From contig OY969414.1 in NCBI GenBank assembly GCA_963699155.1, positions 2,315,757 to 2,379,756 of the forward strand: a DNA stretch of 64,000 nt, in the 5' to 3' direction. The notes under the pieces were generated by a model, which had not been told where the DNA came from, did not search any database, and worked only from the letters and a program-made list of their open reading frames with translations. Below are positions 43,496-44,599 of this stretch, in pieces. The position numbers and the translations under genes are program-made. Each line of letters starts with the position of its first letter. Position 1 is the first letter of the stretch. Source of the DNA: an uncultured Chlamydiales bacterium (GTDB lineage: Bacteria; Chlamydiota; Chlamydiia; Chlamydiales; JAAKFR01).

Positions 43496-44020
43496 ATGAA
43501 GCCGACCCTCAACGCCATCATCATCCGTGCGATGAAGGATCCCTCTTTTAAAGAGGAGCTACTTCAACGACCTAGAGAGGTTCTCGAGAAGAGAGGTCTT
43601 TCTATTCCCCTTCAGTCGAAGGTCACCGTTTTGGAGCAAAGTCTCAAGAAAATCTATGTGGTGATCCCCACAGCTGCTGCCGCAAAAGATTTGGAGCCTC
43701 AACAGGGTGAACCCAGAGCTTTAGGTCCGCTAGAAGAGATTATCCTGCGTGCAGCCAAGGATCCCGCATTTAAGAAAGAGCTGATTAAAAATACCAAGAA
43801 GATCCTCGAGCTCGAGTGCGATATCGAACTACCACAGGAGTGTGTAGGAGAAGTAGTTGAGGAGAGAGATGATCACTTTTACCTCGTGATTCCTTATGTC
43901 CCCAATCCCGGTGAACTTAACGATTCGGAACTGAGTGAATTAGTCGCTGGTGTCGCTCAGGCAAACTCCTACATCTCCATTCTACAGCCTATTTCAACAT
44001 TAGATATTAAAAATTTATGA
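43496..44020 (+). CDS. NHLP-leader RiPP-like precursor with duplicated leader domain
   Basis: II.RA.KDP.FK.EL motif twice, each followed by V.E....Y.VIP; ends ELNDSELSELVAG plus a 22-aa tail. Confidence 0.8.
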   Translation: MKPTLNAIIIRAMKDPSFKEELLQRPREVLEKRGLSIPLQSKVTVLEQSLKKIYVVIPTAAAAKDLEPQQGEPRALGPLEEIILRAAKDPAFKKELIKNTKKILELECDIELPQECVGEVVEERDDHFYLVIPYVPNPGELNDSELSELVAGVAQANSYISILQPISTLDIKNL

Positions 44021-44032
44021 AAAAGGAGAATT

Positions 44033-44599
44033 ATGCCTGAGAATAACAAAGCAGTAGAGTTTTTCACACATATCATTAAAGATGAGGGCTTTCGAAAAAA
44101 ATTTGAGAAAAATCCAAAACAGGCTCTTAAGGAAAATGGCATTACCTGGCAGGATCCGCGCGATCTCAAAGTTTATGAAGACACCAATGATGTCAAATGG
44201 ATCATTGTGCGACAGCCAACCGAAGTCAACCAAGATATCTTAAACTCTTTACCATTATCAGAAAACGAAAAAAAATTTATCAAGGATATCGCTCAGTCAA
44301 AAAATATCAGAGAGAAATTCAAAAAGGATCCAAAGGGGACTTTGAAATCCTATCAGATTGAAATTACGCAGTCAAAAGTAAATATCATCGAAGATACCGA
44401 TCAGGTTGTTAACATTGTGCTTCCAAATAGGGAATTAAAGGATGCCCTTTTAGAGCAGATCAGCGGCGGGGGTGCCTTTACTGATTGGCTCTTACATAAA
44501 GCGCCGGCGATTATCCAGCTACCCGCCTTTACTCTATTTGGAGCCATTACTGGAATAGCGATAGGAATTGATAAAGCTATCGACGCATCTAAAAAATAA
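44033..44599 (+). CDS. NHLP-leader RiPP/bacteriocin-like precursor with duplicated leader and double-glycine site
   Basis: R.KF.K.PK..LK motif twice, EDT..V..I; ELKDALLEQISGG followed by a 42-aa hydrophobic core. Confidence 0.8.
   Translation: MPENNKAVEFFTHIIKDEGFRKKFEKNPKQALKENGITWQDPRDLKVYEDTNDVKWIIVRQPTEVNQDILNSLPLSENEKKFIKDIAQSKNIREKFKKDPKGTLKSYQIEITQSKVNIIEDTDQVVNIVLPNRELKDALLEQISGGGAFTDWLLHKAPAIIQLPAFTLFGAITGIAIGIDKAIDASKK

What the first reader, a model, noticed from the sequence alone, without database searches (positions are those of the whole stretch)
43496..44599. Two orphan RiPP-like precursors, each with a doubled nitrile-hydratase-like leader, in a chlamydia
Seen: both proteins contain two tandem NHLP-like domains, then an ELxDxxLExxxG(G)-like cleavage motif and a short core: VAQANSYISILQPISTLDIKNL, and GAFTDWLLHKAPAIIQLPAFTLFGAITGIAIGIDKAIDASKK (hydrophobic, GxxxG, Cys-free, bacteriocin-like). 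Established: NHLP leaders direct proteusin and related RiPP maturation and export by C39-peptidase ABC transporters, normally with one leader domain. No maturase or transporter lies in this window; a co-oriented Yip1 gene sits upstream. Inference: a trans-processed peptide toxin system with an intramolecular leader dimer, possibly for symbiont competition or host defence. I know of no characterised example in Chlamydiae.
Basis: partly seen in the sequence, partly recalled or inferred. Interest (0 to 1): 0.78.

Follow-up and report, generated by a model that had tools for sequence, protein, structure and literature searches.

The report
Chlamydial peptide precursors with oversized leaders
Two neighbouring genes of an environmental chlamydia encode peptide precursors whose very long leader copies almost the whole fold of a nitrile hydratase subunit; they are 2 of 17 such genes, probably cut and exported by transporters encoded elsewhere in the genome: a known kind of system in an unusual form and host.

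Summary
ORFs 43496-44020 (174 aa) and 44033-44599 (188 aa) each carry two NHLP-leader domains (TIGR03793, 104.3 and 59.9 bits, cut-off 50.9), then a double-glycine-type motif and a short Cys-free tail.

They are not orphans at genome level. The 2.4-Mb genome holds 17 such genes (13 long, 4 short), scattered among housekeeping genes. It also holds two complete NHLP-bacteriocin export loci (HlyD, C39-peptidase ABC1, ABC2). Locus A keeps the catalytic Cys and His; locus B has Ser and Gln there.

No YcaO or LanC was found, and all 11 radical-SAM proteins are housekeeping. The products are therefore more likely unmodified, class-II-bacteriocin-like peptides than modified RiPPs.

The "doubled leader" is not a rarity. 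All 150 best representatives in a 1.84-billion-protein search have two or four such domains. Both models match the nitrile hydratase alpha globular domain over 125-147 residues (Z 7.8-10.3), without its metal site.

In other chlamydial genomes, long-form precursors sit beside the same exporter, once with a TOMM cyclodehydratase. NHLP and ABC1 co-occur across 400 sampled genomes.

Cleavage, export, expression and activity are untested. This scan noted a doubled NHase-like leader before, on other DNA (e1-977966).

The parts
43496..44020 (+). Precursor gene 1 (174 aa): long-form NHLP leader (residues 1-152) plus 22-residue tail
   Evidence: ORF. TIGR03793 104.3 bits, 2 stretches. AF2 model pLDDT 85.3, pTM 0.77. 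NHase alpha match Z 9.0-10.3. 54% identical relative P0002.
43913..43951 (+). Protein 1 recognition helix and non-canonical cleavage motif (residues 140-152, ELNDSELSELVAG; A-G at -2/-1)
   Evidence: Sequence. Helix 143-150 in the model. The register of L-12, L-7 and L-4 fits the pockets described for LahT (PMC6363468 passages). Cleavage itself is inferred.
43952..44017 (+). Protein 1 putative core (22 aa, Cys-free, no Gly)
   Evidence: Sequence. pLDDT under 50 for residues 153-170. No family match.
44033..44599 (+). Precursor gene 2 (188 aa): long-form NHLP leader (residues 1-146) plus 42-residue tail
   Evidence: ORF. TIGR03793 59.9 bits, 2 stretches. AF2 model pLDDT 80.6, pTM 0.74. NHase alpha match, Foldseek prob 1.00 and VIA Z 7.8-9.2. 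41% identical relative P0019.
44429..44470 (+). Protein 2 recognition helix and double-glycine motif (residues 133-146, ELKDALLEQISGG)
   Evidence: G145 and G146 are nearly invariant in a 108-sequence alignment. Helix 133-144 in the model.
44471..44596 (+). Protein 2 putative core (42 aa; hydrophobic, two consecutive GxxxG, Lys-rich end, Cys-free)
   Evidence: Sequence. Low-confidence helices, pLDDT about 50. No family match.
43461..43489 (+). Promoter-like site TTGACC-17-TATACT just before gene 1 (consensus match only)
   Evidence: 10 of 12 matches; 6 sites found in the region against 3.4 expected in shuffles. GAGGG at 43490-43494 lies only 1 nt before the ATG.
43321..43346 (+). Terminator-like hairpin after Yip1, separating it from the precursor pair (consensus match only)
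   Evidence: 11 pairs, 7 G-C, then TCTTTTAACT.
44023..44028 (+). AAGGAG Shine-Dalgarno-like site 4 nt before the ATG of gene 2
   Evidence: Upstream sequence printed.

Best explanation
The two genes are members of a 17-gene family of NHLP-type precursor proteins.

Architecture. Each protein has a folded leader, an amphipathic recognition helix and a short tail. In 13 genes, including both window genes, the leader is a long form that reproduces the whole globular domain of nitrile hydratase alpha without its metal site. The helix ends in a double-glycine-type motif with hydrophobic residues at -12, -7 and -4. The tail is 22-55 residues, hypervariable and Cys-poor.

Proposed mechanism. The C39 peptidase domain of the ABC1 subunit of export locus A (TolC-like, HlyD, ABC1, ABC2; G000:2198513-2206495) binds the helix and cuts after Gly146 (protein 2) or Gly152 (protein 1). 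It then exports the tail across both membranes. Because no known maturase family is present, the exported peptides are probably unmodified, membrane-active, class-II-bacteriocin-like peptides. The bulky leader would keep them soluble and harmless inside the producer.

Shown here: family membership, the fold prediction, the paralogue set, the exporters and their catalytic residues, the lack of known maturases, and co-occurrence and adjacency in relatives.

Inferred: cleavage, export, absence of modification, and any activity or target.
For: 1. Family. TIGR03793 scores above its cut-off in both proteins, with two stretches each.

2. Paralogues. There are 30 domain matches in 17 ORFs: 13 with two matches and 4 with one. 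By eye, 12 of 17 have G-G at the junction, 3 have A-G, D-G or G-A-G, and 2 have none; no tail has more than one Cys. Among the 13 long forms, mean pairwise identity is 31% in each leader half but 14% in the tail. This is the conserved-leader, variable-core pattern.

3. Exporters.
- Locus A: TIGR03794 199 bits (cut-off 156.2), TIGR03796 910.8 (853.3), TIGR03797 685.6 (709.4, just under), plus a TolC-like protein.
- Locus B: TIGR03797 770.8, TIGR03796 903.6, and a short HlyD at 143.2 (under cut-off).
- The locus A peptidase domain matches LahT150 (6mpz) at E 8.7e-41 and keeps the residues aligned to Cys27, His101 and Asp117. The catalytic triad is taken from passages of PMC6363468.

4. Co-occurrence in 400 sampled genomes of the phylum: NHLP in 51 and ABC1 (E<=1e-150) in 65. 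Both are present in 37, NHLP only in 14, ABC1 only in 28, and neither in 321. Kin are not independent. By eye from the listed rows, at least 24 of the 37 have an NHLP match within 10 kb of ABC1.

5. Long-form precursors beside the exporter in other families of the order.
- G114 has five tandem long forms (201-223 aa), divergent from TolC-HlyD-ABC1-ABC2.
- G159 has a 164-aa long form directly before a TOMM cyclodehydratase (TIGR03882+TIGR03604), SagB, HlyD, ABC1 and ABC2.

6. No maturase found: 0 YcaO matches (the control rang in 5 of 14 genomes), 0 LanC matches, and 11 of 11 radical-SAM proteins are housekeeping (MtaB, MiaB, MqnC, MqnE-like, RimO, HemW, HemN, LipA, two RlmN, EpmB). None lies among 107 neighbouring ORFs of the other 15 precursors.

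7. Fold.

8. Complex prediction: C39 domain of locus A (residues 1-150) with protein 2 residues 76-188. Verdict: weak support.
- Score 0.51, best of 3 controls 0.00. The runs agree in at least 79% of contacts. Partner pLDDT is at least 58.
- The mark was reached by 51 of 78 solved complexes and 2 of 108 mismatched pairs. At 0.60 or under it was reached by only 5 of those 78 and by all 4 mismatches that passed (of 180).
- Similar complexes are solved (PCAT1, LahT), so the pass may come from memory.

9. Precedent. Haft et al. 2010 linked NHLP to this three-gene transporter by phylogenetic profiling. They noted precursors far from their export genes, and NHLP species without TOMM or lanthionine enzymes (PMC2887384 passages).
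Against: - No transporter, maturase or immunity gene lies next to the window genes. The link is genomic co-occurrence only.
- Protein 1 has A-G followed by Val rather than G-G.
- Two paralogues lack any such motif.
- 14 of 51 NHLP-positive genomes had no ABC1 at the threshold used, and 28 ABC1-positive genomes had no NHLP match.
- The complex prediction gives only weak support.
- There are no expression data.
- The tails have no family match and are barely conserved even between the closest relatives.
- Only known maturase families were searched. The PoyD search had a silent control. LanB, halogenase, methyltransferase, acyltransferase and HEXXH-type enzymes were not searched.
- The assembly shows apparent frameshifts in rpoC, so single-residue features deserve caution.
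Confidence: 0.6

Rival explanations
1. They are true RiPPs: the tails are modified by one or more maturases that lie elsewhere in the genome and belong to families not recognised or not searched here. They are then cleaved and exported as above.
For: NHLP leaders are best known from modified products. In G159 a long-form NHLP sits directly before a TOMM cyclodehydratase and SagB. A folded leader is known to dock on maturases (abstracts and passages of PMC12537861 and PMC10858898). A 145-residue leader seems costly if it only carries a cleavage helix. 41 of 124 cores of long-form relatives have two or more Cys.
Against: No YcaO or LanC was found, and all 11 radical-SAM proteins are housekeeping. 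No candidate lies among 107 neighbouring ORFs. G114 has five long forms beside the exporter with no recognised maturase. Tails here have at most one Cys.
Confidence: 0.2
2. They are not exported peptides. The NHase-alpha-like domain is the working part, a cytoplasmic binding or scaffold protein, and the hydrophobic tail is a C-terminal membrane anchor.
For: The leader is a confidently predicted compact domain. Many tails look like single transmembrane helices. Two paralogues lack a G-G motif. The genes are scattered among housekeeping genes.
Against: The junction motif with G-G is nearly invariant in 108 long-form sequences. The family co-occurs with, and in relatives lies beside, a C39-peptidase exporter. 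Tails evolve far faster than leaders, and several are not hydrophobic (GRAVY -0.93 to 0.01 for three). The metal-binding Cys motif of NHase alpha falls where these proteins have only a Cys-free linker (alignment). No NHase beta match was found, though that control was silent.
Confidence: 0.08
3. The peptides are exported as proposed but act on the eukaryotic host, its organelles or the inclusion membrane, or serve as signals, rather than as antibacterial toxins.
For: Chlamydiae replicate inside a host vacuole where bacterial competitors are few. The genome carries host-directed effector types next to some paralogues (NEL-LRR E3 ligase, CesT chaperone). The family is expanded and species-specific in form, as effector families often are.
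Against: Nothing here bears on the target. The closest characterised systems (NHLP/Nif11 microcins, class II bacteriocins) act on bacteria. Amoebae often carry several symbionts at once (general knowledge, not tested here).
Confidence: 0.2
4. Protein 1 specifically is a decaying or non-cleavable member: A-G-V junction, a short tail without Gly, and no hydrophobic stretch.
For: The junction is non-canonical. The tail is the shortest of the 17. Two other paralogues have lost the motif altogether.
Against: The frame is intact. The leader scores highest of all 17 in whole-protein terms (104.3 bits). Relative P0002 shares 54% identity over 169 columns without gaps and keeps A-G at the same place. 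The A-G register gives L at -12, -7 and -4.
Confidence: 0.15

Closest known systems
NHLP precursors with the NHLM_micro three-gene exporter (TIGR03793 with TIGR03794/03796/03797; Haft, Basu and Mitchell 2010, PMC2887384)
   Same: Same leader family above cut-off. Same dedicated HlyD/ABC1/ABC2 exporter in the genome. Large paralogous precursor families with conserved leader and variable core. Precursors may lie far from their export genes, and some species lack TOMM or lanthionine enzymes (passages).
   Different: Most leaders here are the long form with two NHLP modules. The host is a chlamydia. There are 17 genes, almost all unlinked to the exporter, and two exporters, one with a non-catalytic peptidase domain. 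The 2010 paper reports 1-12 copies per genome in 14 species, and its only 'chlamydia group' example is Victivallis.
Proteusins (polytheonamide-type and related NHLP-led RiPPs)
   Same: NHLP leader with a rigid tertiary fold and a flexible C-terminal tail carrying the LxxxxL motif at -12 to -7 (PMC10858898 and PMC12537861 passages).
   Different: The defining maturases were not found (PoyD-type epimerase: no match, control silent). Solved single NHLPs match only the second module of the profile (8tb1, 9cjx) and give Z 3.1-4.5 against the models, versus 7.8-10.3 for NHase alpha.
Class II (unmodified) double-glycine-leader bacteriocins and microcins exported by peptidase-containing ABC transporters (PCAT1, ComA, CvaB, LahT)
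   Same: Double-glycine motif with hydrophobic -4, -7 and -12. C39 peptidase ABC exporter with Cys/His/Asp. HlyD and TolC-like partners as in Gram-negative systems. Cys-poor, Gly/Ala-rich hydrophobic cores with GxxxG.
   Different: The leader is about 145-150 folded residues rather than about 15-30 unstructured ones (that usual length is recalled). No adjacent immunity gene was seen. The genes are scattered.
Prochlorosin-type systems (many dispersed Nif11-led precursors served in trans)
   Same: Many precursor genes with one conserved leader and hypervariable cores, spread over the chromosome and served in trans by shared machinery (recalled; also mentioned in the PMC2887384 passages).
   Different: No Nif11 leader and no LanM/LanC. 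The leader is NHase-like and long-form.
Nitrile hydratase alpha subunit / thiocyanate hydrolase gamma subunit
   Same: The long-form profile aligns colinearly, positions 7-158, with 1v29_A residues 69-211 (E 2.4e-20). Both models match NHase alpha over 125-147 residues.
   Different: The metal-binding Cys cluster region of NHase alpha aligns to a Cys-free linker. There is a cleavage motif and tail instead of the enzyme's C-terminus. No beta subunit match was found (silent control). This is a fold relative, not an enzyme.
C39-like domain (CLD) type I secretion ABC transporters such as HlyB
   Same: Locus B ABC1 has Ser and Gln at the positions of the catalytic Cys27 and His101 of LahT. Loss of the Cys is what defines a CLD (PMC6363468 passage).
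   Different: Locus B still scores as a full NHLM_micro_ABC1 equivalog (903.6 bits against cut-off 853.3) and is paired with ABC2. Its substrates are unknown.

Membership tests
NHLP leader peptide family RiPP precursor (TIGR03793) | Match to the curated leader model above its cut-off | tested here: met
   104.3 and 59.9 bits against 50.9. 0 of 14 control genomes ring.
NHLP leader peptide family RiPP precursor (TIGR03793) | Double-glycine-type cleavage motif at the end of the leader | tested here: met
   Protein 2 has ISGG, with G145 and G146 nearly invariant in 108 sequences. Protein 1 has the variant VAG in the same register, so it is met for protein 2 and only in variant form for protein 1.
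NHLP leader peptide family RiPP precursor (TIGR03793) | Co-occurrence with the dedicated HlyD/ABC1(C39)/ABC2 export genes | tested here: met
   Two loci in the genome. In the phylum sample 37 of 51 NHLP-positive genomes have ABC1, against 28 of 349 NHLP-negative ones. The loci are not adjacent to the window genes.
NHLP leader peptide family RiPP precursor (TIGR03793) | Paralogous family with conserved leader and variable core | tested here: met
   17 genes. Leader halves 31% identical, tails 14%.
RiPP in the strict sense (post-translationally modified) | A maturase acting on the core (TOMM cyclodehydratase, LanM/LanC, radical-SAM epimerase or other) | tested here: not met
   YcaO 0, LanC 0, PoyD 0 (silent control), and 11 of 11 radical-SAM proteins are housekeeping. 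None lies among 107 neighbouring ORFs. Other maturase classes were not searched.
Proteusins | NHLP leader together with a PoyD-type radical-SAM epimerase and further tailoring enzymes | tested here: not met
   No TIGR04517 match (the control rang nowhere, so this alone is weak). All radical-SAM proteins are assigned to housekeeping families.
Class II unmodified double-glycine bacteriocins | Export and cleavage by a C39-peptidase ABC transporter with intact Cys/His/Asp | tested here: met
   Locus A ABC1 keeps all three. Actual cleavage cannot be tested here.
Class II unmodified double-glycine bacteriocins | Short unstructured leader of some 15-30 residues (recalled definition) | tested here: not met
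   Leaders of 146 and 152 residues, confidently folded.
Class II unmodified double-glycine bacteriocins | Dedicated immunity gene next to the structural gene | tested here: inconclusive
   No small membrane-protein gene follows the pair; the 5S rRNA gene does. Yip1 upstream is conserved in a congener without NHLP genes at the site. Unknown immunity genes elsewhere cannot be excluded.
Class II unmodified double-glycine bacteriocins | Antimicrobial activity of the released peptide | not testable with these tools
   Needs synthesis or expression and an assay.
Nitrile hydratase alpha subunit (TIGR01323 / PF02979) | Full-length match above the curated cut-off and the metal-binding Cys cluster | tested here: not met
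   TIGR01323 gives 39.1 and 26.9 bits against cut-off 249.85. In the alignment to 1v29_A the Cys cluster faces a Cys-free linker. Pfam PF02979 passes its low gathering score (43.9 and 28.7 against 27.2), which reflects the shared fold.

The most novel reading that the evidence does not exclude
An intracellular chlamydia maintains a maturase-free arsenal of 17 exported peptides. Their leader is not a peptide but a complete, metal-free nitrile-hydratase-alpha domain acting as a built-in chaperone and safety catch. The peptides are served by two parallel exporters: one cleaving (locus A) and one naturally non-cleaving (locus B, Cys to Ser and His to Gln). Locus B might export the motif-less paralogues whole. 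The adjacent window pair could be a two-peptide unit. Its nearest relatives are P0002 and P0017, and the longest contig on record for each is 26,406 bp; whether they share one contig could not be checked.
Probability: 0.2. Interest if true: 0.7.

Novelty: new variant of a known kind. Interest (0 to 1): 0.5.

Why it matters
For peptide natural-product research, the long-form leader equals a whole nitrile-hydratase-alpha domain. It is widespread: at least 139 clusters at 50% identity outside this genome among the best 150 hits. Yet the phrases 'two NHLP' and 'NHLP domains' occurred in no paper of the library searched. It links the enzyme fold and the leader more closely than the single NHLP does, and it offers a test of what a folded leader is for when no maturase is present.

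For chlamydial biology, about one in eight sampled genomes of the phylum carries NHLP precursors and the matching exporter. None of 24 genomes of the 1.0-1.2-Mb genus does. This points to peptide-based competition or signalling among environmental chlamydiae, and it can be tested with simple cleavage and activity assays.

Tried and rejected
- Yip1 as partner or immunity gene: rejected. G147 has glycosyltransferase, Yip1 (57% identical), an unrelated 201-aa ORF, then 5S/23S/16S, with no NHLP there. G322 has other genes after Yip1. A terminator-like hairpin follows Yip1.
- Expression: no RNA holder was listed by the look-up of sequencing runs, and read laying was therefore not used.
- Named-genome context: the search for related loci on genome contigs could not use alignments A2, A1 or A4 (no conserved stretch), and the single protein P0006 found nothing. 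On metagenome contigs, A6 gave 4 distant loci (23-43% identity), which I did not analyse.
- Word-based homologue search found only 2 proteins. The full HMMER search was needed.
- One origin or several for the doubling: a tree of 69 half-domains (59 columns) did not separate N from C halves. Each group needed 14 changes, and starred branches force at least 2. In the subfamily of protein 2 the eight N and eight C halves are sister clades (98/80). This could mean repeated duplication, concerted evolution or weak signal, so it stays unresolved.
- Shared upstream motif: the most frequent 9-mers in the 150 nt before the 17 genes are A/T-rich and occur in at most 4 genes, so no common operator was seen.
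- The 50-bp direct repeat before gene 1 occurs nowhere else in the genome.
- Searches whose controls rang nowhere, so their blanks say little: PoyD and NHase beta.
- Nif11 leaders: none.
- Core families: no Pfam or NCBIfam match to either tail at E<=1.
- Earlier-findings look-ups by place and by sequence gave nothing relevant.
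Full report
**What is there.** The window holds two co-oriented ORFs, 43496-44020 (174 aa) and 44033-44599 (188 aa), 12 nt apart. Both match the NCBIfam NHLP leader model TIGR03793 above its cut-off of 50.9 bits, at 104.3 and 59.9 bits, each with two matched stretches. In the six-frame search of the genome the N-terminal copies stop at profile positions 69 and 66 of 77. 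They therefore lack the cleavage motif, while the C-terminal copies run to position 77. Each protein is thus module, linker, module, cleavage helix, tail, with a single junction. Protein 2 ends its leader in ...ELKDALLEQISGG, followed by a 42-residue hydrophobic, Cys-free tail with two consecutive GxxxG. Protein 1 ends in ...ELNDSELSELVAG, followed by a 22-residue tail.

**Surroundings.** Upstream lie a glycosyltransferase cluster on the minus strand and a Yip1-domain gene at 42715-43311. After Yip1 come a terminator-like hairpin, a 50-bp direct repeat and a promoter-like site; these are consensus matches only. Directly downstream, convergent, is an rRNA operon: 5S at 44693-44807 and a 23S gene with a group I intron and a LAGLIDADG ORF. 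Pfam Hc1 in the window and CT021 elsewhere support a chlamydial genome. In the congener G147 the same glycosyltransferase and Yip1 (57% identical) are followed by an unrelated 201-aa ORF and then the rRNA operon. In G322 other genes follow Yip1. The pair therefore sits in a variable spot, and Yip1 is not part of the system.

**Not orphans in the genome.** The closed 2,399,326-bp genome has 30 NHLP-domain matches in 17 ORFs: 13 with two modules and 4 with one.
- By eye, 12 of 17 have G-G at the junction, 3 have A-G, D-G or G-A-G, and 2 have none. No tail has more than one Cys.
- Among the 13 long forms, the leader halves are 31% identical on average and the tails 14%.
- All 17 genes are below the genome's G+C, with a mean of 40.8% against 47.5%.
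- A Pfam scan of 107 ORFs within about 4 kb of the 15 other genes shows housekeeping neighbours and some effector-type genes (NEL-LRR, CesT). It shows no maturase.

**The exporters.** C39 peptidase matches occur at exactly two places, each inside a full 'NHLP bacteriocin' export locus.
- Locus A (G000:2198513-2206495) encodes a TolC-like protein, HlyD (TIGR03794, 199 bits against 156.2), ABC1 (TIGR03796, 910.8 against 853.3) and a 1000-aa ABC2 (TIGR03797, 685.6 against 709.4).
- Locus B (G000:568183-573394) encodes ABC2 (770.8), ABC1 (903.6) and a short HlyD (143.2, under its cut-off). One short-form precursor lies 4.6 kb from it.
- Both peptidase domains are closest to LahT150 (6mpz), at E 8.7e-41 and 1.4e-32.
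- Locus A keeps the residues aligned with LahT Cys27, His101 and Asp117. Locus B has Ser and Gln at the first two. The triad, and the statement that loss of the Cys defines a non-proteolytic C39-like domain, come from passages of PMC6363468.

**No known maturase.** There is no YcaO match (control rang in 5 of 14), no LanC match and no PoyD-type epimerase match (control silent). All 11 radical-SAM proteins fall in housekeeping families. There is no Nif11 leader either. Other maturase classes were not searched.

**Relatives.**
- In 400 sampled genomes of the phylum, NHLP matches occur in 51 (31 of 212 genera) and ABC1 at E<=1e-150 in 65.
- Both are present in 37 genomes, NHLP alone in 14, ABC1 alone in 28, and neither in 321. 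Kin are not independent, so the odds ratio of 30 overstates the link.
- One genus of 24 genomes of 1.0-1.2 Mb has neither.
- By eye from the listed rows, at least 24 of the 37 have an NHLP match within 10 kb of ABC1.
- In the window's own family (29 genomes), the long form is seen only in G000. All 31 matches listed in the other genomes start at profile position 51 or later and lie in open frames of at most 141 aa.
- Long forms do occur in other families of the order. G114 has five in tandem next to TolC-HlyD-ABC1-ABC2. G159 has one directly before a TOMM cyclodehydratase, SagB and the exporter.
- The long leader is therefore used both with and without maturases.

**The 'doubled leader'.**
- A profile of the 13 long forms found 7200 proteins at E<=1e-3 and 1853 at E<=1e-10 among 1.84 billion representatives.
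- I scanned 151 proteins with a single-module HMM built here: the 150 listed hits plus window protein 1. All 151 have at least two modules: 147 have two and 4 have four.
- Of the 150 listed, 11 are G000's own (P0003-P0013), so 139 come from elsewhere. The script counted 140 as foreign because it missed P0012, which has a different start.
- Of those 140, 120 have a G-G-type motif after the last module and 12 have G-G between modules. Of 124 cores, 64 have no Cys and 41 have two or more.
- Source names printed for some of them are 'NHLP leader peptide family RiPP precursor' from Calothrix sp. and Usitatibacter sp. MAG records.
- The profile aligns colinearly, positions 7-158, with nitrile hydratase alpha 1v29_A residues 69-211 (E 2.4e-20). 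The enzyme's Cys cluster faces the linker. The solved single NHLPs (8tb1, 9cjx) match only the second module.
- AlphaFold2 models are confident over the leader: protein 2 has pLDDT 80.6 and pTM 0.74, protein 1 has 85.3 and 0.77. Both show helix-helix-helix-hairpin twice, with low confidence in the tails.
- For protein 2, Foldseek's listed hits through rank 39 are all NHase alpha or thiocyanate hydrolase gamma, with probability 0.99-1.00.
- VIA-align gives Z 7.8-9.2 over 128-147 residues for protein 2 and Z 9.0-10.3 over 125-142 for protein 1. The next rows, single NHLP structures, drop to Z 3.1 and 4.5.
- The long leader is best described as a metal-free copy of the whole NHase alpha globular domain.
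- Whether it is ancestral or arose repeatedly is open, because the half-domain tree is poorly resolved.

**Literature.**
- Haft et al. 2010 (passages read) defined NHLP and found the three-gene transporter as its only strong phylogenetic-profile partner. They noted precursors far from export genes, species without TOMM or lanthionine enzymes, and fused NHLP-Burk pairs in two species.
- Searches for NHLP with chlamydia(e) returned only that paper, which names Victivallis. A search combining Chlamydiae, bacteriocin, RiPP and biosynthetic gene clusters gave 7 papers; from their listings, none is about this.
- The phrases 'two NHLP' and 'NHLP domains' had no occurrence, and 'duplicated leader' occurred only in two polyomavirus papers.
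- Passages of PMC10858898 and PMC12537861 describe the single NHLP as a rigid fold resembling part of B. smithii NHase.
My search shows that the architecture as such is common.

**Mechanism and its weak points.** The best reading is cleavage at the junction by the locus A peptidase domain and export of unmodified, membrane-active tails. The folded leader would serve as carrier and safety catch.
- A complex prediction of that domain with protein 2 residues 76-188 gave only weak support: 0.51 against a best control of 0.00, with the calibration caveats quoted in the For line.
- Against the reading: there is no local linkage, no immunity gene and no expression data. Protein 1 has an A-G-V junction and two paralogues have no motif. 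Only known maturase families were excluded.
- The assembly also has a fragmented rpoC, with a 264-aa frame where the congeners have 1380-1381 aa.

**Verdict.** This is a new variant of a known kind: an NHLP/NHLM system, long-form leader, maturase-free, dispersed and expanded, in a chlamydia.

Noticed in passing
window 45985-46720 (intron), 45886-46464 (ORF, minus strand): The 23S rRNA gene carries a group I intron (Rfam RF00028, 54.7 bits) with a LAGLIDADG endonuclease ORF (Pfam 90.4 bits). The 23S gene of congener G147 spans 2950 nt, against 3663 nt here, so it appears to lack the intron.
   Followed up: partly
G000:C1:570393-572546 (locus L020:10394-12547, minus strand): The ABC1 of export locus B has Ser and Gln where LahT has catalytic Cys27 and His101. 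It still scores as a full NHLM_micro_ABC1 equivalog (903.6 bits). It looks like a natural non-cleaving variant beside a cleaving paralogue in the same genome.
   Followed up: partly
L019:11494-12423; L045:6081-7010 (minus strand); L046:13386-14255: The ABC2 subunits of three chlamydial NHLM loci (G000 locus A, G114, G159) carry an extra N-terminal stretch of about 290-310 residues before the TIGR03797 match. No Pfam family matches at E<=1, except one weak TPR-like hit (E 0.016) in G159.
   Followed up: partly
G000:C1:1243184-1245680 (L025:3185-5681): rpoC is split into at least three ORFs, by one frame change and one in-frame stop. The same part lies in open frames of 1381 and 1380 aa in G147 and G322. 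This probably reflects assembly indel errors and needs the reads.
   Followed up: partly
window 43346-43446: A direct repeat of about 50 bp, two copies, lies between the Yip1 terminator-like hairpin and the promoter-like site of precursor gene 1. A 30-nt piece of the unit occurs nowhere else in the genome.
   Followed up: partly
L046:4990-16699 (G159:C3): A complete chlamydial TOMM-type cluster: long-form NHLP, fused cyclodehydratase (TIGR03882+TIGR03604), SagB dehydrogenase, short HlyD, ABC1, ABC2 and a short-form NHLP.
   Followed up: partly
L019:5072-5845 (minus strand) and L019:15233-17704: Next to export locus A lie a class-D beta-lactamase/BlaR1-like ORF (202 bits, under the 250-bit cut-off) and, downstream, IS481- and IS4-family transposase genes.
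   Followed up: no
proteins P0014, P0015, P0018, P0021: Precursors with four NHLP-like modules (230-406 aa) exist. One is named as a Calothrix sp. MAG record. Two (P0014, P0018) end in Arg/Trp-rich tails after G-G, one (P0015) in a Gly/Tyr-rich tail; P0021 is cut short after its fourth module.
   Followed up: no
window 30917-31390 (minus strand) and 54175-54906: A histone H1-like Hc1 gene and a SET-domain protein gene, both typical of chlamydiae, lie in the window.
   Followed up: no
L051:3756-4361 (G147): At the site where G000 has the two precursor genes, G147 has a 201-aa ORF. By eye it looks like ankyrin repeats followed by a J-domain-like end (HPD motif). It was not scanned against families.
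   Followed up: no
L024:4071-6530 (G000:C1:1040570-1043029): An LRR protein with a NEL-type E3 ubiquitin ligase domain (Pfam 105.5 bits) lies directly upstream of short-form precursor 1043189.
   Followed up: no
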